From NCBI GenBank assembly GCA_000002435.2, contig CM018792.1: 64,000 nucleotides of DNA; one strand, given 5' to 3'. Both the position numbers and the translations under genes were made by a program. Within the stretch, counting starts at the first letter, position 1. Each line of letters begins with the position of its first letter. Below the pieces are notes generated by a model that saw only the letters and a list, made by a program, of their open reading frames with translations, made no database searches and had not been told where the DNA came from. Below, in pieces: positions 21,760 through 53,397 of the stretch. This DNA is from Giardia intestinalis (lineage: Eukaryota).

Positions 21760-23400
21760 TCACTCCTCCCATCCATCCAGGTTATAGTTGTCCTCTTCAT
21801 CAGAAGCGGCCTTTTTAGGAGTGCTAAGGCGCTGCATGTCTAGATCTGCAGTTAGTTGACCGCCTTTTTCTGAAGAAACCTTGTCTTGAGGGACAGAATC
21901 ACCGCGGGCTTGGTCCTGCGGATCTCTGTCAGATTCTCCATTCATCTCGGCAGCCAGATCAAAATGATCATCCTGCTCGCTCATGTTTGCCAATGACTGC
22001 GCTTCTTGTCCACTCAGATCCAATTCAGCGTTATGAGTGCGATCAGCAACCGCTGCGTCATCGACGTGAGTCTCTGCCTCGTCAAAATAGTCATCATTGT
22101 CAGGCAGACCCTCCTGCTGGGGCTCTGCAATCGTGTCATCGGCTACAATGGTCGTCTGCCTGTAGGTGTCAGTAGGGACAAATGTCCGTGTACCTGCAGC
22201 CACGGTGTACTCGTCTGCTATATATTTCTTGAGAATGGATTCTCCATCTAGCGTAAGAATAGTCTTGTTCGCCATCTGTGCGGAATACAGTGCCTCGCCA
22301 CTCTTGTCTGTAGCCATAATATCCTGTCCGGTTTCGTCGAGACTGAATGGTGAGTCATTAGGAGCTTTCTTTAGCTTCACCATCTCGTGCTTATGCTTCA
22401 GAACAATCTCATGCATGATGTTGGTTTGTCTATTGGTCAACTTATCCTTATCCAGCTGATAGGATTCATTCAGTGCCTTTCTGCCGAATTTTATCTTATT
22501 CTCAAGTATTTCTGTTTCAACCACTTGGCGAGATTGCATCTTCTTACGTAGTCGCACGATATTCTGATGGGCCTCTAGGCTTCTCTTCTCATCTTCAAGC
22601 TGTTGCTGGGCATCTGCTTCTCCCCTCTTCTTCGTAGCATCCTTATATCTTCCTGCACGTAAAAGTTGTGCCTGCGTATACCGCATATCAAGCAGCTTCG
22701 AGGAGTATTTAGGGTGAACCTCAGCGTGCTTCTTCTCTAAAGAAGCTGTGTATTCATCTAGTTCTGCCTTTTGCTTATTTGCAAGAGTCTCACGCATGTT
22801 CTTGACCTCTGCTTCGAAGTTTATCCTCCGTGTCTTATAGGCCTCTTCAAGTTCCAGCCTTTCCTCCTCAAACTGTGCTTCTACAACGCTGACTTCTAGC
22901 TCTTGCTTCCTCTTAAGGCGACCTATTCGCAGCTTCTTGTCCTCAGCAAAAACGGACACCAACTTAAGGCGAATGTTGTCGGCCCGGATATACTCCTCTG
23001 CAGCCTCTAAGTCAGCCCGTGCCTGACGCATACGCCGTATCTTATCGTGAAGTGCAAATATCTGATCATCCATTTCGTCCACATATGGAGCGGCTTCTTC
23101 AACGGCAAAGGATTCATCGTCATATTTAGCAGTTATTTCACTTATATTCGTTATGCCACCTGGTCCGTCGGTGGTATTGCCGTACGATTTGTTCTGTAAA
23201 TCATCCGATTGCTGCGATCTAGGTGCCCCGTTTTCCTGGGGTGTGCGTAGCCGCATCAATTCACAGGAGGAGCCTGGTGACTGGATTGTATACTTGTTAG
23301 CATCACTTTCAATTTGGTCTTTGGTTGTATCGAAGCCCGGGGTAACAAGGCGCGCCAGTTCAACATCGTTAGCGGCATTCTGGTACATCTTGGGAGGCAT
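21760..23400 (-). CDS. hypothetical coiled-coil protein (~546 aa)
   Basis: The track ORF extends to 23508. The in-frame ATG at 23400 (MPPKMYQ…) has the ctaaaaatATG context. A long heptad-like charged central region is present. Confidence 0.55.
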   Translation of the reverse strand: MPPKMYQNAANDVELARLVTPGFDTTKDQIESDANKYTIQSPGSSCELMRLRTPQENGAPRSQQSDDLQNKSYGNTTDGPGGITNISEITAKYDDESFAVEEAAPYVDEMDDQIFALHDKIRRMRQARADLEAAEEYIRADNIRLKLVSVFAEDKKLRIGRLKRKQELEVSVVEAQFEEERLELEEAYKTRRINFEAEVKNMRETLANKQKAELDEYTASLEKKHAEVHPKYSSKLLDMRYTQAQLLRAGRYKDATKKRGEADAQQQLEDEKRSLEAHQNIVRLRKKMQSRQVVETEILENKIKFGRKALNESYQLDKDKLTNRQTNIMHEIVLKHKHEMVKLKKAPNDSPFSLDETGQDIMATDKSGEALYSAQMANKTILTLDGESILKKYIADEYTVAAGTRTFVPTDTYRQTTIVADDTIAEPQQEGLPDNDDYFDEAETHVDDAAVADRTHNAELDLSGQEAQSLANMSEQDDHFDLAAEMNGESDRDPQDQARGDSVPQDKVSSEKGGQLTADLDMQRLSTPKKAASDEEDNYNLDGWEE

Positions 23401-23441
23401 ATTTTTAGAATTCCGTGGAAGTTTAATTTTTCCGCTATCGC

Positions 23442-23702
23442 ATGAAAGACGCTGGCTTTGACGTCCGGTCGACAGAAGCCACGCATTCTCCTGATGAGGA
23501 CTTCCCAAAAATGGAAAGCGGCTTTGTGAGCCTTGACCCAGAAGAGGAGAAGCTTTTGGCAGAAATTAGGACAGATCTCGAAGGTATGAAGAAGAAAGAA
23601 GCAGCTATGGAGGCGCTTCTTCAAGAGCTTGCAGCGTCTAACAAGATAACTTATGCGGCCATAGCCGCTCACTCGGGTGTTTCTGTCCCAGCTGCTCCTT
23701 AG
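23442..23702 (+). CDS. small hypothetical protein (86 aa)
   Basis: An ATG-initiated ORF with an acidic, charged sequence. It is divergent from the coiled-coil gene. No homology was recognised. Confidence 0.3.
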   Translation: MKDAGFDVRSTEATHSPDEDFPKMESGFVSLDPEEEKLLAEIRTDLEGMKKKEAAMEALLQELAASNKITYAAIAAHSGVSVPAAP

Positions 23703-24287
23703 TGTTTTGGTACTGATGGCATTGCTCAGGTTAGGTATACGGGCATCTGCGGGCCAGTGAAAATGACTGCCATCTTCGAGATCAATCTGTGCGGAAGGTG
23801 TCGTGTAAACAGATGCATACCAGTAAAGCACATTCTTTTCGCTTCCTTAGTGCGTGAGTTTGTTGGTGAGAAGGTACGGATTCTGATGTTTCTAAGTCAG
23901 GGACACTGCTATGAGATATAGGTCTTTATCTAGATAGATGAGTGTTTTCTTGAAATCCCAGGACACTCCTGCCAGCCCTAATTGAACATATTTCAGTATT
24001 TATGCTATCAAGCGTTTTTGCCACAGTATGCTCAGAGTCTTGGTCTATCTATTAACACCCATTTACAAAGGCGCTATGTTATGAGAAATTTAAATTAGGT
24101 ATATAAGAATAGATTAAATGTATAGATAGTTAAGTACAATTGAACACAAAATTTAATTAACTTCAAGAGCTATGACAAACACACCATGAGACTCACTTAG
24201 AAGCAACCAAAAAGAAACAAAGAGGAGCATGAGCTAACTATAAGGCTTTCTATAGATGGTTCAAACGTGTAATTCTCGGTATTTAAA

Positions 24288-24911
24288 CTAAAGAGTAAGC
24301 TTAAGAAATACGAAGGCCAGGGGGTAGAAGCCGCGGCGCGAGAGCTCCGTGACCCGCGCGAGGAGCCCCTGCTTCCGGCGCTCCTGGAGCTCGGCGCCGC
24401 ACATCGCGAGGGCCTCGTAGCGCCGCCGCTCGACGGCCTGCGCGCCGGAGGGCTCTGCCTCCCGGGGCCGCGGGGGAGCCCTGGGGGCTGCGGGCCCTGC
24501 GGTGCCGGCGGCGCACCCCGCGTACAGCGAGGCCGCGAGCTCGGGCGGGAAGCGGGCGGCGTACCCGGCCTGGAACGCGTCGGCGAGGAGGCGCAGGTCG
24601 ACGCGCGGCGGGTCTGCAGGGGCCCCGGCCCGGGGGAGGAGCCGCAGCTGGCCGCGGAGGAAGCCGGCGCCCTGGTCCTCGGCCGCCCGGGCCACCCGCG
24701 CCTCCAGGCTCCGGGCAGACAGGCGCACCGTGGCGGACAGCGCGGCCTCCGTCTGCAGCATCAGGCCGACGTCCCCCCGGGGCTGGGCGGCGTAGGACTC
24801 GTAGCCGTCCCGGAGCTCGGCCAGGAGCGCCGTGACCGCCGCGTGGTCCCGGGCCTGCGCGGCCGCCTGCACCCGGGCGGAGACGCTCGCGAGGCGCGCA
24901 CGGGGCTCCAT
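24288..24911 (-). CDS. hypothetical protein (207 aa), GC-island gene 1
   Basis: Within track ORF 24288..26309, the first ATG is at 24911 (MEPRARLASV…). The C-terminal 200 aa have a protein-like composition (…RRRYEALAMCGAELQERRKQGLLARVTELSRRGFYPLAFVFLKLTL). The part of the track ORF upstream of this ATG is R/G/P-dominated and judged spurious. Confidence 0.45.
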   Translation of the reverse strand: MEPRARLASVSARVQAAAQARDHAAVTALLAELRDGYESYAAQPRGDVGLMLQTEAALSATVRLSARSLEARVARAAEDQGAGFLRGQLRLLPRAGAPADPPRVDLRLLADAFQAGYAARFPPELAASLYAGCAAGTAGPAAPRAPPRPREAEPSGAQAVERRRYEALAMCGAELQERRKQGLLARVTELSRRGFYPLAFVFLKLTL

Positions 24912-24953
24912 CGGACGGGGCGGAATTTTGCCGGCCGGCCAAAAATTCACTCG
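24912..24953. promoter_or_regulatory. 42-bp divergent promoter inside the GC island (aattttgcc…caaaaattcac)
   Basis: The only A/T-rich patch in a ~75 % GC stretch. It lies exactly between two divergent ATGs. Confidence 0.4.
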
Positions 24954-26093
24954 ATGGACTGCATCGGCCGCGGCGTCCTCCTCCCCCCGGGCGGGGCGTG
25001 CTCGTGCGGGGCGCTTCTGGCGGAGCTGCAGCGGGTCTGCCCCCTCCTCGCCGCCTCCCCGGAGGTCTGCGCCGCGCCCCGGGCCCTTGTCTGCTGCCGC
25101 CAGCCCCCGTGCCTCGAGATCGCGCCGGCGCCGGCCACCCCGAGCAGCGCCGTCCGGGTCCCTGGGTCCGCGTGCACGGCTCCACCGCCCGCCGCAGGGC
25201 CCCCGGAGGCCGCCCCGGCCGAGAGCGTCCAGGTGACCCTCAGCGCCCAGCGCGAGTCGTTCGTGATGCAGACGATGCGGCAGGCGCACTACGGCGGCGG
25301 AGAGGCCCCCGCGAGGGCGGAGAGCGCCCGCCTGCCCGCCCCGCAGGCCTCGGACCCGAGGGAGGCCCGGCGGAGCCACGCGTCCCGCCCGCGGACGGCC
25401 GGCCCCCGCCTCCCCGCCTGCCCCGAGGAGCCCCCCGGCAGGGTCCAGTTCCGGGGCGCCCCCGAGGCCCCGCCCCTGCGCTGCGAGCCGGCCCCGCCCT
25501 CCGAGTTCAGCGACTTCGGGTGCGAGCTGCTCGCGGCGGGCCAGCCCGAGGACCGGCGGGTCTGCGGCGCCCCGTGGGTGGACGCGCAGGACCTGCTGAG
25601 CGACGGCTCCGAGCACAGCGAGTTCTACCGCCTCGTCGAGAGGGAGCTTGCGCGGCTTCCGGAGCCCGCGGCCCCGGCCCTCCCGGAGAGCGAGCCCTCG
25701 CTGGACGCGCTGCCCGTGCACGCCTCGCCCCGGGGCCCGCAGATCATCGAGCCCACGCCGGCCGCCCTGCAGGAGCCAGAGGAGCCCGCGCCCCCGCAGC
25801 CCCCCACGCCGGGCCGCTCCGACAGCGTCTCGGCAGACATCACGGAGTCGCTCCTCGTGGAGGGCCGGCCCCTGCCCGACCGCCCCCCGGGCCCGGAGCC
25901 GTCCGAGGGCAGCCCCGGGTACAGCGGAGAGGCCTTCGACAGCTCCGGCTCGCCCCGGGGCCTGACCGACGAGGCCGCGGGGTCTGCGGGCCTGGACGAG
26001 GAGGACCTGCTGGGGTCCGTCGGCGGGGACCTGCGGGCGCTGCTCATGGACAGCGGGTCCGGGTCGCTGTCTGCGGGGGCCTGGCCGGAGTGA
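24954..26093 (+). CDS. hypothetical Pro/acidic-rich protein (379 aa), GC-island gene 2
   Basis: ATG at 24954; the track start 24843 is GTG. The sequence contains SEHSEFYRLVERELARLPEP and DEEDLLGSVGGDLRALLMDSGS. The antisense frame here is R/G-dominated. Confidence 0.45.
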   Translation: MDCIGRGVLLPPGGACSCGALLAELQRVCPLLAASPEVCAAPRALVCCRQPPCLEIAPAPATPSSAVRVPGSACTAPPPAAGPPEAAPAESVQVTLSAQRESFVMQTMRQAHYGGGEAPARAESARLPAPQASDPREARRSHASRPRTAGPRLPACPEEPPGRVQFRGAPEAPPLRCEPAPPSEFSDFGCELLAAGQPEDRRVCGAPWVDAQDLLSDGSEHSEFYRLVERELARLPEPAAPALPESEPSLDALPVHASPRGPQIIEPTPAALQEPEEPAPPQPPTPGRSDSVSADITESLLVEGRPLPDRPPGPEPSEGSPGYSGEAFDSSGSPRGLTDEAAGSAGLDEEDLLGSVGGDLRALLMDSGSGSLSAGAWPE

Positions 26094-26116
26094 ACTCGGG
26101 AGAGCCTTTTTATTGA

Positions 26117-28627
26117 ATGGATTCTGCGCCACTCGCCGTCGCGATCCGGGAGCACGTCCCGGGCCCGAGGCCCCCGCCGCGGCCGTCCGGGGGGCGGTCC
26201 CTCTTCGCGCAGGCCGTGGCCGCCGGGGCCGGGCAGACCGGAAGGCCCTTCGCCCTCGGGCAGCCCCCGCCGCGCGCCCCGGCCCCAGCGCCGCCCCGGG
26301 GCCCCCCACCGCCCCCCGCCGCAGAGGACCCGGGCGGGCCCCTCCTCGGGTACGGGGGCGCCGCAGACCCGGAGGCCGTCCCGTTCTGCAGCGCGGCGGA
26401 CATCGGGCTCCTCTGCCGGTCGACGAACCCCGCTCAGCGCGAGTACGGGCTCCGGATGCTCGCGAACGCCGTCGCGCTCCGGCGCGTCCGGGACGGCGGC
26501 GCCCCCGATCCCGTCCTCGAGGCCCTGCTCTGCCTCCCCGCCGACCCGCACGCGTGCCCCTCGTCTGCCGGCCACCTCCTCCTCCTGGGCCTGCGAGACG
26601 CCCTGGAGTCCGGGAGCCCCGGCCTCCTCGACGCCGCCCTCTCCGGCCTCGCCACGGTCTTCGTCGCCGACGAGGGCTTCCTCAGCGAGACCGTCCACGT
26701 CGGGGCCGCGCTGCTCGGGCTGACGTCCAGCTCGGTCGCCTTCCCCCTCGGCTCCCTGCTGCGGCGGCTCGTCGAGCACGGGCTCCCGGGGCTCCTGGGC
26801 CAGGCCCTCGACGCCGCCGCGCGCGCAGACGAGCGGCGCCGGGAGCGGCTCGCCCACAGCGCGTACCTGCTGGCCGAGCGCGTGCTCATCGGCTGCTGCC
26901 CCGCAGACGAGCCCCCGGAGACCGCCGCCGGCCTGCGGGCCCTCGCGGAGCGGCTCCTCGCGGCGCTCCTGGGCGAGCTCGCCGGGCTGGCGGAGACGGG
27001 GGCCTTCCTGACGACCGCCTCCCGCGTCGCCCTCCGGACGCTCTGCTACGACCACGTCCTCGACGGCCACGCGCTCGGCCGGGACGCCGTCGCCCTCCTC
27101 GTCGAGTCCCTCGAGGCGTTCGTCGGGGCGCTCCCCGGCCAGGACGAGGCGGTCCGCACAGAGCTCCTCTCGGCCGCCACGCTCCACTACCTCCTCGTCG
27201 CCCGGGTCCTGCGGGGGAGCCCCGAGCTCTGCGCCCTGCACGCGGCCGTCTCTGCGACGTGCGCCGCCGCCCTGGAGCGCCACGCCCCGGCCGCCCCCGC
27301 GGAGCTCAGCGCGCTCCTCGTCCTGCTCCGGATCCTCCGGGCCCGGGCCGCCGTCCCCCGCGCGCGCCTGGGGCTCTCGGAGGCATGCTTCCGGCGGCTG
27401 GTCGACTGGCGGGCCCCGCCCGAGGCCGGGGGCTTCGCGCTGCCTCGGGGGCCCTCCGCGGCGTTCGCCCCGTTCTACGCCCTCGCGGCCGTCCAGTGGC
27501 GCGGCCCGGGCGAGTGGGGCGCGGCGGAGGCCTGGGTCGGCTGCGTGATGGACGTCCTCGCCAGCGGGCCCCCGGTCGCGCGCTGGGCGCCCCCGGCCGT
27601 CGACGCCCACCGGCGGGCAGGCGTGCTCCCGTGCGCGGTGACCGACGCAGGGGTCGCCCTCGCGCTCCTCGTCGCGGCCCTGGCGGCCGTCTGGGGCCCC
27701 GGGCTCCCGTTTGCCGCCGGCCTCGCCGAGCGGGTCGGGGAGCGCCTGGCAGGGCTCCCGGCCGAGTTCCGGTTCGTCGTCGCGTTCCCGCTCGCCCGGC
27801 TCCTCCCCCCGCTGCCCGCTATCGAGTGCGGGCTCTACCCGAACGCGGCGCTCCTCGGGGCGCTCCGGGCCGTCACGGGCCACCCGGGCTACGACCCCGC
27901 GGCAGAGGCGCTTGCGCACGTCGACGCCCGCTGCCCGTGCCCCGCGCTCGCGGCCCTCCACGCGGCGTGCGTGCTCGCCTCGGACGGGATGCGGCGCGAC
28001 GGGGCGTGGCGGCTCGCGGTCCTCCGGCTCGCGCTGCAGCGCCTGGCCGGGCTGGAGACCGCAGGGGCCGCCCGGGGCCGCGTCCTCGCGTACGGGCTCC
28101 TCTGCGTCCTCGACACGCTGACGGGCGTCTGTCGCCTCCCCCCGGACGCCGCGGCCCTCCTCGCGGAGACGCTCGCCGGGGTCCTCCGCCTCGCCCGCGC
28201 AGGCCCCGCCCCCGCCGCCGAGCTCCTCTACGCAGCGCCCGCCGGGGGGCTCCGGACGCTCGACGCCGCCGCCGGCGCGTTTGTCGAGGGCCTCCACGGG
28301 GGCGCGGCGGTGCTCCCCGAGGCCCCGCTCGTCTACCTCGCGCTCCTCCACCCGCAGCTCGTCCCGGACCCCCGCCGCCGGGCAGAGCTCTGGTCCGGGC
28401 TCGCGCTCCTGCGGCTCGACTTCGCGGCGCTCGACGGGGGCCTCCTCGCGGGGCTCTGCGAAGACGACCCCGCGCCCGTCCTCGCGTGCCTCGCGTGCTA
28501 CGAGCGCCGCGCAGAGACCGCCCTGTCGCGCCGCGTCCTCGCCCGGTACGCAGAGGCCCACCGGGGGCAGAGGCCCGACCGGGTCGTCGTCGCGGCCGTC
28601 GAGGAGGCCCTCCGACCAGCGGGCTAG
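26117..28627 (+). CDS. hypothetical Ala/Leu-rich protein (836 aa), GC-island gene 3
   Basis: ATG at 26117 with the tttttattgaATG context. The translation has a balanced composition including F, Y, W, H and C, and a helical-repeat-like character. The competing frames (26113..28890 on the plus strand and 25625..28561 on the minus strand) are Arg/Pro/Gly-dominated. Confidence 0.55.
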   Translation: MDSAPLAVAIREHVPGPRPPPRPSGGRSLFAQAVAAGAGQTGRPFALGQPPPRAPAPAPPRGPPPPPAAEDPGGPLLGYGGAADPEAVPFCSAADIGLLCRSTNPAQREYGLRMLANAVALRRVRDGGAPDPVLEALLCLPADPHACPSSAGHLLLLGLRDALESGSPGLLDAALSGLATVFVADEGFLSETVHVGAALLGLTSSSVAFPLGSLLRRLVEHGLPGLLGQALDAAARADERRRERLAHSAYLLAERVLIGCCPADEPPETAAGLRALAERLLAALLGELAGLAETGAFLTTASRVALRTLCYDHVLDGHALGRDAVALLVESLEAFVGALPGQDEAVRTELLSAATLHYLLVARVLRGSPELCALHAAVSATCAAALERHAPAAPAELSALLVLLRILRARAAVPRARLGLSEACFRRLVDWRAPPEAGGFALPRGPSAAFAPFYALAAVQWRGPGEWGAAEAWVGCVMDVLASGPPVARWAPPAVDAHRRAGVLPCAVTDAGVALALLVAALAAVWGPGLPFAAGLAERVGERLAGLPAEFRFVVAFPLARLLPPLPAIECGLYPNAALLGALRAVTGHPGYDPAAEALAHVDARCPCPALAALHAACVLASDGMRRDGAWRLAVLRLALQRLAGLETAGAARGRVLAYGLLCVLDTLTGVCRLPPDAAALLAETLAGVLRLARAGPAPAAELLYAAPAGGLRTLDAAAGAFVEGLHGGAAVLPEAPLVYLALLHPQLVPDPRRRAELWSGLALLRLDFAALDGGLLAGLCEDDPAPVLACLACYERRAETALSRRVLARYAEAHRGQRPDRVVVAAVEEALRPAG

Positions 28628-28628
28628 C

Positions 28629-28635
28629 GTTCACT
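28629..28635 (-). terminator. putative polyadenylation signal AGTGAAC overlapping the kinase stop codon (tgAGTGAAC)
   Basis: The + strand reads gttcact at 28629-28635. On the minus strand the motif overlaps TGA. Confidence 0.5.
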
Positions 28636-29563
28636 CAATCAGGGGCACCTGACCCCAGGGCGGCCCGCAGGCCCGCGACCTCCCCCCGGAGCCGGGCGAC
28701 CTCGTCCTCCAGGGCCTTGAAGCGCAGGGCCGTCGCGACCGCAGGCGCCCCGCCCTCTGCGTCGAGGAGCTCCACGAGGGCCGCGGCGGTGAGGCGGCGC
28801 TCCGGCTCCAGGACGAGGAGGTGGGCGAGGACGCCCCGGACGACGGGGTCCCCGACCGCGCCCAGGTCCGGCCGCCAGCCCGCGACGTAGACCTCCGCGG
28901 GGGCCCGCCCGGAGAGGAACGGGGGCCTGCCGCCCGCCGCGAGCTCGTAGGCGACCATCCCGAGGCTCCACATGTCCGCGGCCGGCGTGTGGCTCCCGCC
29001 CCGCAGGACCTCCGGCGCGGCGTAGACGGGGACGGCCATGGAGGCGAGCCCCCCGGGGCCCTCCCTGCAGAGCCCGAAGTCGGAGATGGCGAACTCCGCC
29101 CCGGCCTCGTCGAGGAGGACGTTCGCGGGCCGCAGGTCGCAGTGCGTGAGGGCGGGGAGCGGGGCGCCCGCGGCGTCGGTCTTCCCGGGCCGGTGGAGGT
29201 AGGCGAGCCCCGCGCCCACCTGGCGGAGGACGGCGACGACCATCTCGCGCAGGGCGAGCTGCCTTCTGCGGCGGAGGCTCCGGATGGCCCCGTCGAGGGA
29301 GCCTGCGTAGCGCCGCATCTCGACGTAGATGTAGCCCTCGTGCCGGACGACGCGCCCGTACTCGACGACGTTCGGGTGGCGGAGGCGCGGGAGGGTCCGG
29401 AGCTCGAGCTCGAGCGAGGCCTGCGCGTCGGGGGGCAGCCCGTCGGTCGGGATCTCCTTGACCGCCCTGTCGGGGGCGCTCTTCAGGCCGTAGACGGTCC
29501 CGTGGGCCCCGCTCCCGAGCTCTGCGCCCAGGTCTTCGAGGAGGGCGTCGATGGCCTCGGACA
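28635..29563 (-). CDS. NEK-family Ser/Thr protein kinase with C-terminal coiled coil, GC-island gene 4
   Basis: G-loop LGSGAHGTVYG, VAIK-like RAVKEI and HPNVVEY are present. The NEK-type insertion LHRPGKTDAAGAPLPALTHCDLRPANVLL resembles NEK2 CHRRSDGGHTVLHRDLKPANVFL. DFGL, YAAPEV, DMWSLGMVAYEL and a C-terminal coiled coil ALEDEVARLRGEVAGLRAAL follow. The ATG at 29561-29563 has the ttaaaaagATG context, whereas the track start 29609 is TTG. TGA overlaps AGTGAAC. Confidence 0.85.
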
Positions 29564-30019
29564 TCTTTTTAATCCGCGACTGGGCGATTGGGTGATTGGG
29601 CGGGCTCAATCGCTTGGGCTCAGACTGAGATACCGCCTAGCTGAGCGCCGCTCAATGAGGGTGATCGGGCGGAATTGAACGAAAAGGAAAGGACCCGACC
29701 ATCGTTCCAGAGATGGCTTGACCGAGTTCGCCTGTCGACTAGGATCAGATCAGGCAGCTAGTACTGGACTACTCACTATCAATATGTATTCTATCACTGG
29801 AGTTATGGAACAGCTAAGTGAAGTCTATATTCTTAAGATGAATCTTAATTGTCAATAATTGATGTTTACAAATCTGGAGTCTCTGCATCTTAGGTCAATC
29901 CTAAATAGGTAAATATGAGCATGTCCAGATAAAGTTTACTGTCAACCCACATAGTAAGATAAGTTAAAGCAGATTACGACCTCCGAGGTTGAAAGAGGGA
30001 ATGCTTGTTGATGACCTCA

Positions 30020-31588
30020 TTATGGATGCAGTGACGTATTTTCACTTTTCCGTGAGCGGTCCTTCTTTTTCCCACAGCAAAATATGTAGGACACCAAAGC
30101 AATCACTGCAACCAGAATCGGAATAAGTACAAATACAACTATGATACCATTGCTCCTGAGGAAGCTAGATGTCTGAGGGGGGTCAACATCCAAAGCATGC
30201 TCATTCCCTCGCTGAAGAATGTCAGTCCAGACGTTGTCTTCAAGTGTGGGTGCTCTATTGGCATACAATTGATTCGCGTCTTTTCCTTTTAAGGGGAAAT
30301 ACTTTGGTATTTCTGAGTACAGTTCCTGTTCGGTGCACAGTGAGTTCTTCCCGATTGGAGCGTAGAAGTGGCCTTTGCTGCCCCAGTCATCGCCCCAGGA
30401 GTTGCGAACGATCCAGACGTCAATTCCGTTCCGTTTTCCGTACCCTACTATCGTTACTTGATGATCTATAGTCGTATTTTTGCAAGGAACATCAAGAATG
30501 CCTGACTTGTAAGTATGTAGAATCGCTTCAGTTTCTTCTTTTCCATTAGAAATAGTGTTCACAGTAATGACAATGGGGATTCCGCGTGCAAGGAGAGACT
30601 TTGCAACCTTAACGGCGTTCTTAAAGCTATTCTTCTCGAGATATTTGTCATAAACACGAATAAGAGCTGTCTGACAATTAGCCGCAGGTACTATGTTACC
30701 AGGAAGAAACGCTTTTTTAACCTTCATTGATGTGCTGTTCTCTATGCTAGAAGGATTAGCGGATAAATTAACGGCGGTTAAGGGAAAGTTGGTCAACGAC
30801 TCAAGCGTATCTAACCCTTGTTGGTTAGCATAGTCACGAGAAACTCTTAGATAATTACCACCTTCGCAATAATGATTGGCTGGATATGACCTGTTCATGA
30901 TGTACTGCTCTGAAGCCTTGAAGTGAGGGTCCTTGAAGGCATCGTCAATGGTGGAGTCTGACTGAAAGTAATTTCTGGTCAGTCGGACCGATATTTCATA
31001 GAACGCAGCAGAAGCCATTGCCCAGCAGCAGCCACAAGAACCCTGATCTCTAGCTAGATCGATCAAGCCGAGTTCTCGCAAGTCGACAGATGGGGGGAGA
31101 GAAGACAGTGTAGTCAGGGGATTCTTGCGAGAGAAGGCAAATGTCTTGCAATCATAGTTACTCCTCTGAGAGTTCGCAGAAGTAGAGCGACTAAGTTTGA
31201 GCAAGAGCCGCTTGACCGAGAAGGAGAACCGGCGCCAGGGGGTGCTTAGATCAATCATGTCAGCAGGATCAATCGGCACGTACCCATTCTGGCTGATATC
31301 GCGGTTAAGAGTGGGGTTGAGGCCGTATTTAACTGACCCCTCTGTGCGCTCGAGAATGTTGCGGAGGTGACTGAGGTTCTGCGCGTGGCCAGCCCCAAGA
31401 AGAGCCAGATTCTTGCGAAAGTGCTCCAGCGCCGTCTCATACTCCTCAGCGGACCTGTAGAAGTGGGCAAAGTGTGCGTTAAACTCGTCAAAGAGGGTAG
31501 CATCCCCGCGTAGACTATCGATATTTTCGACGCGAGCAAAGGAAACTCCTAGCCAAAAGATTGTTGTGGCACAAAGCATCGACACCAT
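30020..31588 (-). CDS. papain-family (C1A) cysteine protease, cathepsin-like, with C-terminal transmembrane anchor
   Basis: A signal peptide and an I29-like propeptide (EFNAHFAHFYRSAEEYETALEHFRKNL) are present. The catalytic residues sit in QGSCGCCWAMAS (Cys), IDHQVTIVGYG (His) and WIVRNSWGDDWG (Asn). A C-terminal extension ends in the hydrophobic stretch IIVVFVLIPILVAVIALVSYIF followed by CCGKKKD. Confidence 0.85.
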   Translation of the reverse strand: MVSMLCATTIFWLGVSFARVENIDSLRGDATLFDEFNAHFAHFYRSAEEYETALEHFRKNLALLGAGHAQNLSHLRNILERTEGSVKYGLNPTLNRDISQNGYVPIDPADMIDLSTPWRRFSFSVKRLLLKLSRSTSANSQRSNYDCKTFAFSRKNPLTTLSSLPPSVDLRELGLIDLARDQGSCGCCWAMASAAFYEISVRLTRNYFQSDSTIDDAFKDPHFKASEQYIMNRSYPANHYCEGGNYLRVSRDYANQQGLDTLESLTNFPLTAVNLSANPSSIENSTSMKVKKAFLPGNIVPAANCQTALIRVYDKYLEKNSFKNAVKVAKSLLARGIPIVITVNTISNGKEETEAILHTYKSGILDVPCKNTTIDHQVTIVGYGKRNGIDVWIVRNSWGDDWGSKGHFYAPIGKNSLCTEQELYSEIPKYFPLKGKDANQLYANRAPTLEDNVWTDILQRGNEHALDVDPPQTSSFLRSNGIIVVFVLIPILVAVIALVSYIFCCGKKKDRSRKSENTSLHP

Positions 31589-32587
31589 AGCACGCTATCT
31601 TTAAAAGTTGTGCAAATTTTACACTTGCTTATAATTGTAAATATAAGCATTTCTTTAATTGTACTGTAAAAGAAGATTTATCGGAAACAGAGCACAGTGG
31701 GGTCAAGGAGACGCACAATCAGAGTGGTCATATTTCCTGCAATATTCCATTTTTCCAAGAAAAATCTTGACCAAAACAATGAAGACTGACGTGTAGATAG
31801 ATCGATTGGAGATTGGGGCCGTTGCAAATCATCACGTGAGCAGAAGCGTGAAGAAGACGTTCCGCTTTCGACAAGTGCAGATTAAAAAAGTCAGGCAGAT
31901 AGGACCTTTTTGCTGCTTACGTGCTCAGGCTCATGGCTATCAGTTTTCTATGTTACACATCTATCGATGGGCGTATAAAGAGGCTACAATTGGTTTCAAA
32001 TCAATATTTTTCACAAGAAAAGTCTGTTTTCAATAACGCATGCAAATCTTGAGGATTGGTCTCGACGCTATAGACTCTTCGCTAGTTACTACTTACCTTA
32101 CTACAGTGGTCGCAAAGATCCTCCAAGATCACACAACACGCTGCCTCTCTACCAGGGTCGTTACACTGCAAACGATGGACTCTTAATACATAAGTACTGG
32201 ACATGATAACTAGTTAGATATCATGCAGGTGGAGTGCCGCTATGTCCCCAAGCTTGCTTTCTCGACGGACCCGTGTCCGGCATGCCCGTCACAGTGCGAC
32301 AGCTGCTCTGGTTTAACCTTTCATCTTTCAAGGGAGGAGCTCGGTGTCATTACTTTATAGTCCATTCTTGTAAACGCATAGCAAAGTAGTAATCATCCCA
32401 GAGAAAACGGACACACCTCTTACTTCGACTAGCCGCTGTATGGTGCTTTTTTTGGCACTACTGGTGCCCAGGCTGCTAGCCACCTGTTATCAACGAGTAA
32501 TTACTACTAGTCATAACAGATAGTCAATGCAGAGAAATGCTTGGAAAGTTCAAACAAGTTTAAAAATACAAAGCCGTCCGTGTGCCC

Positions 32588-49888: not shown

Positions 49889-52800
49889 CTAGCAAACATC
49901 AAAAATCACTCGCTTGCTGATTGCTCCGTCAGGGGCCGTTTGTGTTTGCACCTTGGCCACAATGCAAATAACTTCAAACCGAAAGCGCGCCCTTCGACGA
50001 GTCATAATGCGCTTTTCTTCAAGAAACTTTTTGAGCATATTGTTTGGCCGCTTAGATGCAAGTCTATAAATCTCTTCAACCGTCTTGTTGTGTGAAGAAG
50101 GGTTCATCAGATAGTACTGGGTATTCCACGACAGATCTGCAATAGATGAGTGCTCATCGCTTTCACTTCCTGACCTCTGCTGATGACTGGAGCCCGGGTA
50201 GTCCAAATCTGATGTATCTACCGGTGCGTGGCCATATTCGGCCATGCGCTCCAGATAAAACTCATTGTAACGAAGATATCTGGGAAGGCGAGGTACCGCA
50301 AGCGTGCCTCTAGCAGAAGACTTGTAATCTGCATAAGACATGCTTGTGTCAGAGGCTCGGGAGCTCCATGTACTGGTACGGTCGGGATCACTGGCCCCCT
50401 TGTTGGAGGCAAGCGTTGACCTCATTCTGTGTCTCTCTGGGTGCATGAGATATTGAGTAAACGAAGCCTTGTCCTGTTCTGTTGGGGTAGATGATCGAAA
50501 ATAGATGTGACCAGTGGTGCTGGCGCGCATAAGGTGTGCAGCTGCATCTGTAGCTGCATAGGGAGCGTAGTTAGAATTCCTGATGCTCTCCAGGGCTGCC
50601 ACCGGAGGAAGAATACTCGGAGTGGAATGCTTGGAAGAGCGAACACAACTGGGGCCAGCAGATCTACTTGGAGTGGAGATTGTGGAGGCGTTTGGCAAAG
50701 CAAGTGAGCCAATGCGAGAATCAACTATCTTGTTATTTGTCGTCTGATTGAATCTATCAGTGGGCTCCTGTTCAACCTCGAGTAAAGTAAGCTTCACTGT
50801 CTCATTGCGCGGTGTTTGTGGTAGCAAGCGATCTTTGTCAGGACTGTGAAACTCAGCAGACACTCCATAGCCTACTTGAGCATCAGATAGACAGTCTGAC
50901 GAAGGGAGCACTTGAGTTGTATCGGACGTGTCGGTAAGCATGATTGCGTTATCTCCTGCTAACAAATCAAAGCTAGATTCATCACTATTTGTTTCAGATG
51001 GCAGCAGAAGAGTGCGTCGCTTATGGTAAGCTCGAGGTGGCTGCTTGACAGAGCTTCTTGCGGTGACCAGGCTTCTAAGCTGACTGTCCTCCCGACCCGC
51101 CTTATTTGTTGCTTCTTGTATAAAGGGTATTGCATCCTTACTGTGTGTACATGTACATGAGGAAGACTTTAGACTAGGGTCCTCTGCCAGAGAGGTGGTC
51201 CCTTCAGAGAGAAGATCAAGGCACTGTAAAAGCCGTCCAGGGCAGTCGATAGATATGTCTATATGTGAGAGGGGGGAAGAAGATAGATTGACTTCGTGAC
51301 TCCGCATAGTCTGCTCCAGGGGAGCACTGATAGCTAGAGTAGCCTGCTTAGATAATGCAAAGGGACTAACCACCTTATCGAGTGACTTGCTGGACGTGTG
51401 TAGATCATGAAACGGTGATTCTAAGTTCTGGTTATGCTGAGACTTATATTGCTGAAGAATTTTGTATACACTTTCCACAGAAAAGTCCTTATCTTGCAAA
51501 GGAGATGATCTACTTCTGCTCTCAAAATGCGTGTAGTTTAATACTTGGCTTCGCTGTTGTGCAGTATTCGATAGTGAGTAAGTAAGTCTTTTTCGGTGAG
51601 AAGAGCTCAAAGAAGGGGGGCCATCTGGAGGTGCAGGCGGTCCTACCTCAGTAGCCAGTGAAAAATCACTAGGGTGAGTAGGAGATGAGGAGTAGGGTAG
51701 AGCAGGCTGCGAGCCAGACATTATGATATCCCTTATGGCGCGAGTTCGACCCTTACTGATTGTCTGCGGGCCAAATATCCGCGTGACTCTCTCCTGTTGT
51801 GTAAGGTTGCTGAGTGAATAACTCATATCCGGTAAAGAAGTGAATAGAGTGGCCATACTCATAGACTTATCTAAAGAAGATTTGACCGATTGATGATGCG
51901 ACGGAGACAGCTTTGGGTCGGTGCTCTTCCTGTATTCAGTAGACGTTTGCTTTGGGTCAATAGGTGGTATGTCTGTGACAAGAGTGAGAGGAATGCGACC
52001 ATTGGAATCAGGTTGGCTTACAAGAAGACGTTGCTGTGAAAATTCCGATGATGGTGTATTATTTATCTGTACTGCCGATACGCTGCGAGGTATGTGTTCG
52101 TAAATTATACCAGGCATCGCAGTAGCTTTGGAACGCTTTAATAAAATAGTTCTCAGTGGACTCAGAAGCTGGCCCTTACATGCATTGGTTGGGTCAGCAG
52201 TTGTATTAGATGGATTGTCGACAAACTGGTTGATACCGTCGTTTACGACTCTCCTTCTAGAGTACTCCCGAATACCAAAGTCACGAACTGTGCAGGAGGT
52301 AGTCCACGGGGTCCGGCTCGAGACATCTATCTGAGAGCATCTACAACTTTGTGCATCTTCCTGCTTCTCGCTTAAGTCCCTGGCGGTCTCTCTAATGGGG
52401 ATATCTAGAGAATCATCACTGTGTGTGCACAAATTGTCCCTCGAACTACTAACAGATTGATCATCTAAAAGGAGAGATACCTCATCAAAAGACTCCTGCT
52501 CAGGCCGCTTCTGCTGGTGAACAGGGGGGTAAAAGGTGCCGGGTGAACACTGTCTTTGTACAGAGCAAGCAGCGCTTTTAGCACGATGAGGTACTACCCT
52601 ACAATGGGTTCGTGAAGGAGGAGGGATACAGTACACACGGAGGGGCGAGCCAACAACTCCTGTGCTCTTCCCTCGAATCAAGGAGGTCATGGTTCTCGCA
52701 ATTGGTTTCGTTGCCGGAGCCAGGGACATATGGCAAGAAGGCGCTCCACCGTGGGCTCCTTGACTACGGTCAGACAATATCGTTGAGACCACATCCTCAA

Positions 52801-53296
52801 CCGTAGACATCTTCCCCGCAGATCCCGAGGTATCTGACTGGGATAGTGACAGCTTGAAAGAAGGGTCAGTGTGTTGCAAAGTACTGGGAAGGCTAAAGTT
52901 CAGCTCCGTGGTGTCCTGCTCAACGCAGAAACGAGGAGGGTTCAAGTATGCAGTGAGTTGTGACGGTTTGTGGCCTAATGTGTACACTGTGTCATCAAAG
53001 TGGAATGAGCGAGAAAATGGCTCCCGTTTGATAAACAGGTGCCCATCAGACGTGGTGGTCACCACGGCTAGAGAATGCGGATGGGGGCGAATCTTATCCA
53101 AGCCGCTATGGACGGAAATAGATAAGTTCTTATGGATCAGTTGCTCATATATCTTGTGAAAAGGCTTTGTATTGCATCTTCGAGCCGTAGCATGCTTTGC
53201 CACATATCCCTTGCGAAGCAGCAATCTATACGCAGCATTTTCTGGCCGCCTTCCAGAAGCTTTGGCCTGCCTGAGCAAGAGAAACAGTCGATGCAA
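49889..53296 (-). CDS. large hypothetical Ser-rich protein (up to 1135 aa; start uncertain)
   Basis: The frame is open from 53296 (TTG), but the first in-frame ATG is only at 52810. The upstream 162 codons still look protein-like. Confidence 0.45.
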   Translation of the reverse strand: MHRLFLLLRQAKASGRRPENAAYRLLLRKGYVAKHATARRCNTKPFHKIYEQLIHKNLSISVHSGLDKIRPHPHSLAVVTTTSDGHLFIKREPFSRSFHFDDTVYTLGHKPSQLTAYLNPPRFCVEQDTTELNFSLPSTLQHTDPSFKLSLSQSDTSGSAGKMSTVEDVVSTILSDRSQGAHGGAPSCHMSLAPATKPIARTMTSLIRGKSTGVVGSPLRVYCIPPPSRTHCRVVPHRAKSAACSVQRQCSPGTFYPPVHQQKRPEQESFDEVSLLLDDQSVSSSRDNLCTHSDDSLDIPIRETARDLSEKQEDAQSCRCSQIDVSSRTPWTTSCTVRDFGIREYSRRRVVNDGINQFVDNPSNTTADPTNACKGQLLSPLRTILLKRSKATAMPGIIYEHIPRSVSAVQINNTPSSEFSQQRLLVSQPDSNGRIPLTLVTDIPPIDPKQTSTEYRKSTDPKLSPSHHQSVKSSLDKSMSMATLFTSLPDMSYSLSNLTQQERVTRIFGPQTISKGRTRAIRDIIMSGSQPALPYSSSPTHPSDFSLATEVGPPAPPDGPPSLSSSHRKRLTYSLSNTAQQRSQVLNYTHFESRSRSSPLQDKDFSVESVYKILQQYKSQHNQNLESPFHDLHTSSKSLDKVVSPFALSKQATLAISAPLEQTMRSHEVNLSSSPLSHIDISIDCPGRLLQCLDLLSEGTTSLAEDPSLKSSSCTCTHSKDAIPFIQEATNKAGREDSQLRSLVTARSSVKQPPRAYHKRRTLLLPSETNSDESSFDLLAGDNAIMLTDTSDTTQVLPSSDCLSDAQVGYGVSAEFHSPDKDRLLPQTPRNETVKLTLLEVEQEPTDRFNQTTNNKIVDSRIGSLALPNASTISTPSRSAGPSCVRSSKHSTPSILPPVAALESIRNSNYAPYAATDAAAHLMRASTTGHIYFRSSTPTEQDKASFTQYLMHPERHRMRSTLASNKGASDPDRTSTWSSRASDTSMSYADYKSSARGTLAVPRLPRYLRYNEFYLERMAEYGHAPVDTSDLDYPGSSHQQRSGSESDEHSSIADLSWNTQYYLMNPSSHNKTVEEIYRLASKRPNNMLKKFLEEKRIMTRRRARFRFEVICIVAKVQTQTAPDGAISKRVIFDVC

Positions 53297-53397
53297 TTCA
53301 GTTTTTAAAGAACTTTAGAGGAGAAAATTATATTCAGTGGCTGTACTTGCGTGACTACCAGTAACGGAGGAGTACTTGAGCTACTTAGAGGACCGGC

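What the first reader, a model, noticed from the sequence alone, without database searches (positions are those of the whole stretch)
23703..24287. Gene-free AT-rich spacers bracket the GC island on both sides
The ~585 bp to the left (23703-24287) and ~320-380 bp to the right (about 29700-30019) contain no ORF. They are markedly AT-rich, with tracts such as aaatttaaattaggtatataagaatagattaaatgtatag. This is unlike the <100-bp intergenic spacers elsewhere in the window. Sharp GC-to-AT transitions exactly at the island edges are the kind of boundary expected at an insertion or rearrangement junction or an isochore-like border. The spacers could also hold ncRNAs or decayed sequence.
Basis: seen in the sequence. 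Interest (0 to 1): 0.5.

Follow-up and report, generated by a model that had tools for sequence, protein, structure and literature searches.

The report
Ordinary spacers flanking duplicated GC-rich genes
The two AT-rich gaps are ordinary, neutrally drifting intergenic DNA of the parasite Giardia. They look striking only because they abut a duplicated 5.3-kb block of four native genes that has been driven to about 80% GC.

Summary
The window is Giardia intestinalis WB chromosomal DNA. 23703-24287 and about 29625-30019 have no plausible ORF, and they contain the two lowest-GC 200-bp stretches of the 64 kb (28.5% and 31.5%, against 47%).

The spacers themselves are ordinary. The left one is collinear with assemblage E (P15) and diverges at the neutral rate (71.5% identity, against 77% at third codon positions). 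Both are AT-rich in P15 as well. I found no flank-to-flank repeat, no Rfam hit and no excess RNA folding. They carry the poly(A) signals of the outer neighbouring genes.

The island is not foreign. It holds four Giardia genes: an unannotated gene A, GL50803_0023876, GL50803_0060704 and a NEK kinase. These have Giardia-type promoters and poly(A) signals and GC3 of 0.93-0.97. Gene C has a G. muris orthologue of normal composition.

The junction idea is partly right. At least B-C-NEK is annotated twice, in the same order, about 38 kb apart in WB. The inferred repeat ends (24304 and about 29624) nearly coincide with the compositional edges. P15 carries a VSP gene inside the right spacer that WB lacks.

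The most likely cause of the GC enrichment is GC-biased gene conversion confined to the repeat.

The parts
23442..23702 (+). GL50803_0023874, an 86-aa hypothetical protein. It is the last gene before the left spacer.
   Evidence: Exact match to KAE8304055. It is 85% identical in nucleotides to the P15 orthologue, and 77% at third codon positions.
23703..24287 (.). Left spacer, a convergent 3'-3' intergenic region of 585 bp. It contains the poly(A) signal AGTGAA of gene 23874 at 23756-23761. Its AT-rich core is 24000-24287 (32% GC). The best-conserved block is 24120-24178.
   Evidence: It is orthologous and collinear in P15, at 71.5% identity. There is one 41-bp indel. The P15 spacer is 0.31-0.34 GC. 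W-to-S and S-to-W differences are balanced (34:32) in the AT-rich half. There is no Rfam hit. Fold z-scores are +1.24 and +1.05. The poly(A) motif is.
24288..24911 (-). Gene A, 207 aa and 78% GC. It is not annotated in the WB reference.
   Evidence: The codon-phase GC pattern fits the minus strand, with GC1/2/3 of 0.83/0.58/0.93. The exact protein occurs in Logan and ENA contigs, and a partial DH entry DHA2_152232 exists. An intact GC-rich orthologue is present in L004 (dN/dS 0.70). In P15 it is lost or replaced.
24304..29624 (.). Inferred extent of the segmental-duplication unit (about 5.3 kb: A, B, C and the NEK gene with 60 nt of its promoter).
   Evidence: The duplicate genes GL50803_00d23876, GL50803_00d60704 and a NEK gene (KAE8304032-34) are annotated in the same order as KAE8304056-58. 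L005, L006 and L008, from three separate sequencing runs, start at 24304 and are 99.7-99.9% identical to the window. The right end is placed from the N-terminal read-through of P0065, P0075 and P0076 compared with the window. Both ends are inferred, because the second WB copy's DNA with its flanks could not be fetched.
24912..24953 (.). Divergent A/B promoter. It has two AT-rich initiator-like elements (AATTTT and AAAAATT).
   Evidence: Read directly from the sequence. It is conserved in P15.
24954..26093 (+). Gene B, GL50803_0023876. It is 379 aa, low-complexity, with GC3 of 0.96. Its stop codon lies inside an AGTGAAC poly(A) signal.
26117..28627 (+). Gene C, GL50803_0060704. It is 836 aa, predicted all-alpha, with GC3 of 0.96.
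   Evidence: The G. muris orthologue GMRT_14638 matches at E=3e-106 and has ordinary composition (GARP 0.25 against 0.49). The AlphaFold model is helical only and of low confidence (pLDDT 47.8).
28635..29564 (-). Gene D, a NEK kinase (KAE8304058), 309 aa, GC3 of 0.965. It is one of three near-identical copies in WB. AGTGAAC follows its stop codon.
   Evidence: Pkinase domain at 1.5e-31. Copies and annotation. Poly(A) motif. dS against P15 is 0.116.
29565..29624 (-). Promoter and 5' region of D, shared with the other NEK copies. An AT-rich initiator (TTAAAAAG on the gene's strand) sits next to the ATG.
   Evidence: Homology to P15 runs as far as 29602.
29625..29782 (.). Locus-specific 158 bp of about 53% GC. 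It has no counterpart in P15 or in the other NEK copies. P15 carries a VSP gene at this position.
   Evidence: There is no VSP remnant by tblastn.
29783..30019 (.). AT-rich part of the right spacer, minimum 31.5% GC. It is the 3' flank of cathepsin L. That gene's AGTAAA signal (read on the minus strand) lies at 29935-29940.
   Evidence: It is about 79% identical to the end of P15 contig ACVC01000137, which abuts ACVC01000142 exactly. Poly(A) motif. Fold z-scores are 0.01 and 0.43. The only Rfam match is a chance-level RSV_RNA hit at E=0.057, 14.6 bits against a gathering score of 105.
30020..31588 (-). Cathepsin L (KAE8304059), the first gene after the right spacer.

Best explanation
The two spacers are single-copy, largely unconstrained Giardia intergenic DNA that sits at the AT-rich mutational equilibrium of non-coding sequence (about 31-34% GC).
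- The left spacer is a convergent 3'-3' gap. It holds the 3' end and poly(A) signal of GL50803_0023874 and the 3' end of gene A.
- The right spacer holds the 3' end and poly(A) signal of cathepsin L. It also holds a locus-specific stretch where a VSP gene sits in assemblage E, and the short promoter of the NEK kinase.

The spacers look exceptional because they lie just outside a 5.3-kb block of four native Giardia genes (24304-29624). This block exists at least twice in direct orientation, about 38 kb apart, on the WB chromosome.

Inside the block a GC-favouring fixation bias has operated. It has pushed third codon positions to 93-97% GC, remodelled the proteins towards Gly/Ala/Arg/Pro, and cut the synonymous divergence about four-fold. 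The most likely cause is GC-biased gene conversion, accompanying frequent conversion between repeat copies and between homologues. The bias stops where the homology stops, which is why the compositional edges and the repeat edges nearly coincide.

Shown directly: the composition, the native gene signals, collinearity and neutral divergence of the spacers, the duplicated annotation, the low dS, and the ordinary composition of the G. muris orthologue.

Inferred: the exact repeat ends, the direct orientation of the copies, and gene conversion as the cause.
For: - Organism and genes.
- Coding phase and GC3.
- Giardia-type AT-rich initiators and AGTGAAC poly(A) signals inside the island.
- Left spacer: collinear in P15, 71.5% identical. 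Adjacent third codon positions are 77% identical and other intergenic regions 74-96%. It is AT-rich in P15 too, with balanced W/S changes in its AT-rich half.
- Right spacer: the AT-rich part is conserved in P15.
- No flank-to-flank repeats; both flanks are unique within the window.
- No ncRNA signal.
- Duplication: the 'd' genes and the order of protein accessions. Xu et al. 2020 define 'd' as a duplicated gene and report that 6.9% of the genome is duplicated. Three contigs share the start 24304 and two share the end 28671. The three NEK copies differ by no more than one residue plus the C-terminal residue. Homology upstream of the NEK ATG ends after 60 nt.
- GC drive: dS between WB and P15 is 0.116 for D, against 0.42-0.53 for the neighbours. 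The GARP fraction is 0.49 in G. duodenalis gene C and 0.25 in G. muris. GC-richness is present in every assemblage sampled.
- Precedent: Giardia rDNA is 75% GC, spacers included, and gBGC has been proposed for it (PMC10123126). AI/AII gene-conversion tracts are GC-enriched (PMC12669663).
Against: - The second WB copy's DNA with its flanks was never read. The repeat ends rest on contig end-points and on over-extended ORFs.
- GC-richness predates any WB-specific duplication. In P15 and in L010 the NEK gene is GC-rich as a single gene next to GWT1, which has normal GC. There the GC domain tracks the coding sequence or transcription unit and not a demonstrated repeat. Copy number in those assemblies is unknown.
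- The left transition is very sharp (tens of bp). Conversion tracts of variable length would be expected to give a more blurred edge.
- The two flanks rank first and second for AT-richness only at about 1 in 21. The third-ranked spacer (31589-32587, minimum 0.33) is not next to any island.
- The block 24120-24178 is conserved at 85-88% and is unexplained.
Confidence: 0.6

Rival explanations
1. The island is a foreign insertion, by horizontal transfer from a high-GC organism or as a mobile element. On this reading the AT-rich spacers are the disrupted target site or the insertion junctions.
For: The composition is extremely atypical for the host: 80% against 47% GC, and more than 5 SD above the published mean gene GC of 48.95 +/- 5.2%. 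A, B and C have no Pfam domains.
Against: - Gene C has a G. muris orthologue of ordinary composition, and more distant relatives.
- The kinase is a Giardia NEK whose nearest relatives are Giardia NEKs.
- Homologues among 5.8 billion proteins are Giardia-like only.
- The genes use Giardia initiators and AGTGAAC poly(A) signals.
- The left junction is shared with assemblage E.
- There are no terminal repeats or target duplications, and no mobility genes.
Confidence: 0.03
2. The spacers carry a function of their own. Candidates are an unannotated ncRNA, a promoter for sterile or antisense transcripts, or a boundary element that insulates the GC-rich block.
For: The block 24120-24178 is 85-88% identical between assemblages A and E, against 71.5% for the spacer as a whole. 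Its core 12-mer TGAACACAAAAT recurs near gene A in a third assemblage. From my own knowledge, AT-rich tracts act as promiscuous bidirectional promoters in Giardia (Teodorovic et al. 2007); I did not check this here.
Against: There is no Rfam match on the left, and only a chance-level hit on the right. Folding energy is no better than for shuffled sequence on either strand of either spacer. Overall divergence is at or below the synonymous level, with frequent indels. The 12-mer match is not significant on its own (E about 0.5).
Confidence: 0.12
3. The spacers are the remains of decayed genes, and their length and AT-richness reflect pseudogene erosion around a rearrangement-prone VSP/NEK neighbourhood.
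For: - In P15 gene A has been lost. Only its last roughly 58 bp can be aligned, and there the mismatches run mainly G/C in WB against A/T in P15 (9 against 3). About 200 bp of lower-GC sequence follows.
- P15 has a frameshifted VSP in the right spacer that WB lacks.
- Xu et al. note that regions around VSPs are gene-poor.
Against: There is no trace of a VSP in the WB right spacer by tblastn. The WB left spacer has no similarity to any held protein or locus other than its P15 orthologue. The P15 left spacer has about the same length and composition, so no recent erosion is visible.
Confidence: 0.15
4. The GC-richness is delimited by the gene or transcription unit, through selection for G/C-ending codons or a transcription-coupled mutation bias. 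It is not tied to the repeat. On this reading the spacers are simply untranscribed DNA.
For: The GC domain starts and stops at gene ends wherever it was seen: at B's ATG in P15, and for the NEK gene alone between a VSP and GWT1 in P15 and L010. Optimal codons in Giardia end in G or C, and CAI correlates with GC3 (PMC8393687). Giardia UTRs are very short, so a transcript-wide process would look as if it were limited to the coding sequence (my own knowledge).
Against: First and second codon positions and the amino-acid content are also shifted (GC1 0.78-0.85, GARP 0.44-0.50), which codon selection does not predict. dN/dS is raised, not lowered (0.41-0.70 against 0.09-0.25). The last roughly 25 nt of gene A's coding sequence are AT-rich.
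Confidence: 0.2

Closest known systems
Ordinary Giardia intergenic regions (mean 477 bp in the WB reference; Xu et al. 2020, PMC7000408)
   Same: The length (585 and 455 bp) is near the genome mean. They carry AGTRAA poly(A) signals after the flanking stop codons and an AT-rich initiator next to the ATG of D. Their divergence between assemblages is neutral.
   Different: They contain the two most AT-rich 200-bp stretches of this 64-kb window. Within this locally very compact region (median gap 74 bp) they are among only five gaps of 400 bp or more.
Segmental duplications in the WB genome ('d' genes; 6.9% of the genome, up to 20 kb; Xu et al. 2020)
   Same: The duplicate genes are annotated (GL50803_00d23876, GL50803_00d60704 and a second NEK). 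The copies are 99.7-99.9% identical. A multigene-family member (NEK) is involved, as the authors note is typical.
   Different: The unit is compositionally extreme, and its inferred ends coincide with the compositional edges. I found no paper that describes this coincidence.
Giardia rDNA repeat (about 75% GC including spacers; gBGC proposed; PMC10123126, citing Escobar et al. 2011)
   Same: It is a multi-copy unit of about 5.5 kb in the same genome, with extreme GC that extends beyond functionally constrained positions.
   Different: The unit here is protein-coding and low-copy (2-3 copies), and it is internal to the chromosome and not subtelomeric. There is no rRNA: Rfam gave no hit anywhere in the window.
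The mouse Fxy gene spanning the pseudoautosomal boundary; gBGC-driven GC islands in mammals and birds (my own knowledge; not checked in the library)
   Same: A native gene shows runaway, lineage-specific enrichment of GC3 and of GC-rich amino acids, with a sharp edge at the boundary of a high-recombination domain. Orthologues in sister lineages have ordinary composition.
   Different: Giardia has no demonstrated meiosis. Here the recombination domain would be a low-copy repeat and not a pseudoautosomal region. The recombination rate was not measured.

Membership tests
Transposon or mobile-element insertion | Terminal inverted or direct repeats, or a target-site duplication, at the two edges | tested here: not met
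   The best flank-to-flank local alignments, direct and inverted, score 10.5. Of 200 dinucleotide shuffles, 47 and 45 reach that score. The flanks share no 10-mer.
Transposon or mobile-element insertion | Transposase, integrase or reverse-transcriptase gene, or multiple dispersed copies of the ends | tested here: not met
   The only Pfam domain in the island is Pkinase. The flank sequences are unique within the window.
Horizontally acquired genomic island | Closest homologues lie outside the host lineage, and the genes are absent from sister lineages | tested here: not met
   Homologues of C and D are Giardia-like only. C has the G. muris orthologue GMRT_14638 at E=3e-106. The left junction is shared with assemblage E.
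Horizontally acquired genomic island | Atypical composition relative to the host | tested here: met
   The island is 78-80% GC against 47%. However, the G. muris orthologue has ordinary amino-acid composition, so the bias arose within the lineage.
Segmental duplication (low-copy repeat) | Two or more copies of at least 1 kb at 90% identity or more in one genome | tested here: met
   KAE8304032-34 and KAE8304056-58 lie on the same 2.76-Mb record. Contigs carrying the d-copy proteins are 99.7-99.9% identical to the window over 4368 bp.
Segmental duplication (low-copy repeat) | Defined breakpoints where identity between the copies ends | tested here: inconclusive
   The left end (24304) is inferred from the identical start of three independent contigs. 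The right end (about 29624) is inferred from the divergent upstream read-through of the other copies. The second copy's flanking DNA could not be fetched.
gBGC-driven GC-rich domain | GC enrichment at all codon positions, strongest at third positions, with a shift towards GC-rich amino acids | tested here: met
   GC1/2/3 is about 0.8/0.55-0.63/0.93-0.97, against 0.5-0.6/0.35-0.41/0.47-0.50 in the neighbours. GARP is 0.44-0.50 against 0.21-0.23.
gBGC-driven GC-rich domain | Fixation bias: W-to-S alleles segregate at higher frequency than S-to-W alleles | not testable with these tools
   This needs population resequencing data. The only indirect signal is the four-fold lower dS.
gBGC-driven GC-rich domain | Association with locally raised recombination or conversion | tested here: inconclusive
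   The three NEK copies are near-identical within WB, yet 89% identical to the P15 copy. This fits concerted evolution, but it also fits recent duplication.
Structured non-coding RNA in the spacers | Match to a known family, or thermodynamic or covariation support | tested here: not met
   Rfam gave nothing on the left. On the right it gave one chance-level hit (E=0.057, 14.6 bits against a gathering score of 105). Fold z-scores are +1.24, +1.05, 0.01 and +0.43.
Ordinary Giardia intergenic spacer / UTR | Poly(A) signal AGTRAA shortly after the flanking stop codons, and an AT-rich initiator at the flanking start | tested here: met
   AGTGAA lies 53 nt after the stop of gene 23874, and AGTAAA lies 79 nt after the stop of cathepsin L. 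TTAAAAAG abuts the ATG of D. No AGTRAA was found for gene A.
Ordinary Giardia intergenic spacer / UTR | Transcripts continuous from the neighbouring genes and no independent transcript | not testable with these tools
   No expression data were available.

The most novel reading that the evidence does not exclude
The island is a hotspot of ectopic and inter-homologue gene conversion that is delimited by the repeat. In the Giardia duodenalis lineage, GC-biased conversion has driven four native protein-coding genes to GC3 of about 0.97. It has rewritten roughly half their residues to Gly/Ala/Arg/Pro, and it stops within tens of bp of the repeat ends. This would be a protein-coding, low-copy counterpart of the 75% GC rDNA. 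It would also be a natural reporter of recombination activity in an organism whose sexuality is disputed.
Probability: 0.35. Interest if true: 0.6.

Novelty: new member of a known kind. Interest (0 to 1): 0.3.

Why it matters
The spacers themselves are ordinary, and I do not think they merit further work.

The island they frame is more useful for three reasons.
- It lies at the extreme upper end of the published Giardia gene-GC range (39.1-81.1%).
- It broke both the older WB assembly and the P15 assembly.
- It contains a gene that is unannotated in the reference.

Its repeat-bounded composition offers a concrete way to test whether GC-biased gene conversion operates in Giardia. That question bears on the long-running debate over recombination in this parasite.

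Tried and rejected
- rDNA. My first guess, because Giardia rDNA is a unit of about 5.6 kb at 75% GC. Rejected: there is no Rfam hit in the window and the codon periodicity is clear.
- Giant-virus or other hosts. Rejected once the cathepsin L matched G. intestinalis WB at 100%.
- Repeat scan of 23400-30400. It gave only low-complexity GC-rich chance matches inside the island, so I replaced it with a direct flank-against-flank test.
- Exact look-ups of the kinase. These failed only because my coordinates included one extra codon. They succeeded with 28635-29564.
- Fetching the second WB copy with its flanks. Only 1.8-4.4-kb GC-rich Logan contigs came back. The assemblage-B orthologue locus was not on record.
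- P15 'remnant' of gene A. Beyond the first roughly 58 bp it has no detectable similarity to WB gene A: the Smith-Waterman score of 15 is below the shuffle mean of 17.4.
- VSP remnant in the WB right spacer. None found.
- Structure of gene C. The model is all-helical with mean pLDDT of 47.8, too poor for a fold search, so I ran none. There were no PDB sequence matches.
- Literature. I found no paper on these gene IDs or on GC islands in Giardia. The supplements of PMC12669663, which list the genes in conversion tracts, are not held.
Full report
**What the window is.** The cathepsin L ORF at 30020-31588 is 100% identical to a protein of Giardia intestinalis ATCC 50803 (WB) on a 2.76-Mb record. 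Exact look-ups tie the neighbouring ORFs to consecutive WB annotations:
- KAE8304054 = GL50803_0016367
- KAE8304055 = GL50803_0023874
- KAE8304056 = GL50803_0023876
- KAE8304057 = GL50803_0060704
- KAE8304058 = a NEK kinase
- KAE8304059 and KAE8304060 = cathepsin L genes

**The observation.** An island of about 80% GC spans about 24316-29700 in a 47% GC background.
- The left gap 23703-24287 is 38.1% GC overall, and 32.3% in its right half. The quoted AT-rich tract is at 24087-24126.
- The right gene-free gap is really 29565-30019.
- The two lowest-GC 200-bp windows of the whole 64 kb lie in these two gaps: 0.285 and 0.315, against a background of 0.4725 +/- 0.044.
- Among the seven gaps long enough to measure, these two rank first and second. 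That is about a 1-in-21 coincidence.
- Only ORFs of 54 aa or less lie inside the gaps.
- The claim that all other spacers are under 100 bp is not correct. The median is 74 bp, but gaps of 587, 999 and 1039 bp also occur. The genome-wide mean is 477 bp (PMC7000408).
- The left compositional edge is sharp. The right edge is a ramp of about 300 bp.

**What the island is.** GC by codon phase shows four coding segments with third-position GC of 0.93-0.97:

| Gene | Coordinates (strand) | Identity |
|---|---|---|
| A | 24288-24911 (-) | not annotated in WB |
| B | 24954-26093 (+) | GL50803_0023876 |
| C | 26117-28627 (+) | GL50803_0060704 |
| D | 28635-29564 (-) | NEK kinase, Pkinase 1.5e-31 |

The genes use Giardia signals:
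- A 42-bp divergent A/B promoter carries AATTTT and AAAAATT.
- A 23-bp AT-rich stretch precedes the ATG of C.
- AGTGAAC poly(A) signals overlap or immediately follow the stop codons of B and D.

The block is GC-rich in every assemblage I could sample: 77-79% GC in L002-L006, and 72-77% for the P15 kinase. In the more AT-rich genome of L010, D is 58% GC against neighbours at 38%.

A profile search over 1.84 billion proteins finds the orthologue of C in G. muris (GMRT_14638, E=3e-106) and two more distant relatives. These have ordinary composition: the Gly+Ala+Arg+Pro fraction is 0.21-0.33, against 0.48-0.49 in four of the five G. duodenalis-type sequences and 0.36 in the fifth. The genes are therefore native and were driven GC-rich within the lineage. 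Horizontal transfer is effectively excluded.

**The left spacer.** P15 (assemblage E) contig ACVC01000141 runs through GL50803_0016367, GL50803_0023874 and the whole spacer into the start of B. It breaks there, in GC-rich sequence.
- The spacer aligns along its whole length at 71.5% identity, with one 41-bp indel. The adjacent coding sequence is 85% identical, and 77% at third positions.
- Other intergenic regions in the two syntenic stretches are 74-96% identical.
- The P15 spacer is just as AT-rich (0.31-0.34). In the AT-rich half, W-to-S and S-to-W differences are balanced at 34:32. This is what compositional equilibrium looks like.
- One block, 24120-24178, is better conserved (85-88%). 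I cannot explain it.
- AGTGAA, 53 nt after the stop of gene 23874, is conserved as AGTAAA in P15.
- In P15 gene A is gone. Only about 58 bp at its 3' end align, and there the mismatches run mainly G/C in WB against A/T in P15 (9 against 3). About 200 bp with no detectable similarity follow, and then the conserved A/B promoter.
- A third assemblage (L004) keeps an intact, GC-rich gene A.

**The right spacer.**
- The end of P15 contig ACVC01000142 and the start of ACVC01000137 join without a gap when laid against WB.
- Window 30011-29783 aligns to the first 225 bp of contig 137 at about 79% identity.
- P15 then has a 2.3-kb frameshifted VSP gene (PF03302, E=3.6e-100) before the kinase promoter.
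- WB instead has 158-180 bp (29603/29625-29782) with no counterpart anywhere I could search, and no VSP trace.
- AGTAAA for cathepsin L lies 79 nt after its stop codon.

- Flank-against-flank local alignments, direct and inverted, score no better than shuffles: 47 and 45 of 200 shuffles reach the observed score, and the flanks share no 10-mer.
- The flanks are unique within the window.
- Rfam at E of 1 or less gives nothing on the left. On the right it gives one chance-level hit at 14.6 bits against a gathering score of 105.
- Folding energies are no better than for shuffled sequence on any strand: z = +1.24, +1.05, 0.01 and +0.43.

**The junction that does exist.** WB annotates duplicates of B and C (GL50803_00d23876 and GL50803_00d60704, KAE8304032-33), followed by a NEK kinase (KAE8304034). 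This is the same order as KAE8304056-58, 21 genes away. 'd' denotes a duplicated gene in this annotation, and 6.9% of the genome is duplicated (PMC7000408).
- A third NEK copy (KAE8303967) exists. The three copies differ by at most one residue plus the C-terminal residue.
- A 38.2-kb contig from isolate DH runs from a NEK gene to a partial gene A. That is the interval between the two copies.
- Contigs from three separate sequencing runs carry the d-copy proteins and are 99.7-99.9% identical to the window. All three begin at the base equivalent to 24304, and two end at 28671.
- The right end fits a graph branch 30 nt into the three-copy NEK repeat. I read the common left end as the left end of the duplicated unit. 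It lies 12 bp before the GC rise and inside the last five codons of gene A.
- On the right, over-extended ORFs of the other NEK copies (P0065, P0075, P0076) share only 20 residues (60 nt) upstream of the ATG with this locus. This places the right end near 29624.
- The inferred unit, 24304-29624, almost matches the compositional island. These ends are inferences, because I could not fetch the second copy's flanks.

**A synteny difference inside the island.** In P15 and in L010, the kinase is followed by GWT1 and U3_assoc_6, not by gene C. Relative to those assemblies the break therefore lies in the 7 bp between C and D, inside the island and not at the AT-rich flanks. Either there was a real rearrangement through NEK copies, or the P15 contig is chimeric across the repeat. 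I cannot tell which.

**Mechanism.** Synonymous divergence between WB and P15 is 0.116 for D, against 0.42-0.53 for the three neighbours. dN/dS is 0.41-0.70 in the island and 0.09-0.25 outside. First and second codon positions and the amino-acid content are shifted as well. This pattern fits a strong GC-favouring fixation bias better than codon selection.

Three things make GC-biased gene conversion confined to the repeat the best explanation:
- the near-identity of the paralogues;
- the coincidence of repeat ends and compositional edges;
- the precedent of the 75% GC rDNA, for which gBGC has been proposed (PMC10123126).

Published AI/AII conversion tracts are also GC-enriched (PMC12669663).

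Two weaknesses remain. GC-richness is older than any WB-specific duplication. And in P15 and L010 it follows a single gene's boundaries, so a process tied to the transcription unit remains a serious rival.

**Verdict.** The spacers are ordinary, single-copy, neutrally evolving intergenic DNA at Giardia's AT-rich equilibrium, containing the 3' ends and poly(A) signals of the flanking genes and a promoter. The contrast comes from the island. It is wrong in the sense of a foreign or transposon insertion, and there is no support for ncRNAs. The published range of Giardia gene GC already reaches 81.1% (PMC8393687), so such genes are known to exist. I found no description of this block or of its repeat-bounded composition.

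Noticed in passing
window 24288-24911 (-): An intact 207-aa ORF (gene A, GC3 0.93) has no entry in the WB reference annotation: KAE8304055 and KAE8304056 are consecutive. It is annotated only as a partial hypothetical protein in isolate DH (DHA2_152232). It is intact in another assemblage (L004, dN/dS 0.70) and lost in P15.
   Followed up: partly
window 28628-28634; L009 3725-3799; L010 1377-1458: In WB the NEK kinase is convergent with gene C, 7 bp apart. In P15 and in a more distant assemblage it is followed in tandem by GWT1 and U3_assoc_6. This is either a rearrangement through near-identical NEK copies or a chimeric P15 contig.
   Followed up: partly
L009 418-2705 (P15 contig ACVC01000137): P15 has a VSP gene between cathepsin L and the NEK kinase. 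It is split into two overlapping ORFs (573 and 252 aa) and ends in CRGRA instead of the usual CRGKA. It may be a pseudogene or a 454 homopolymer error. Its last roughly 300 bp rise to 63-69% GC next to the kinase.
   Followed up: partly
window 31589-32587: A 999-bp gene-free gap separates two divergently transcribed cathepsin L genes. It has the third-lowest GC in the window (0.33 at 31596). It is 74% identical to P15 with very few indels (9 gap columns), and the same gap length is present in P15.
   Followed up: partly
window 6537-7575: A 1039-bp gene-free gap (43% GC) lies upstream of the tenascin-like gene. It is the longest spacer in the window.
   Followed up: no
window 24304-28671 against L005 and L006: L005 carries copy-1 type sequence across B, but the four d-copy differences in C. 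It is either a mosaic contig path or real conversion between the copies. In L006, 9 of the 14 differences from the window are A/T in the window against G/C in the contig (3 run the other way and 2 are G/C exchanges).
   Followed up: no
L008 1801-1820: This Logan contig ends in the Illumina adapter sequence AGATCGGAAGAGCACACGTCTGA. That is an assembly artefact, not Giardia sequence.
   Followed up: yes
window 49889-53296 / 52811-53397: The long minus-strand ORF opens at a TTG (1135 aa), but the first ATG gives 973 aa. This leaves either a 587-bp gap at 48% GC or an unusually placed start codon.
   Followed up: no
window 24120-24178; L007 about 500-560; L004 3-14: This is the best-conserved block of the left spacer (85-88% between assemblages A and E). 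Its core TGAACACAAAAT recurs about 70 bp from gene A in a third assemblage. No function could be assigned, and the 12-mer match is not significant on its own.
   Followed up: partly
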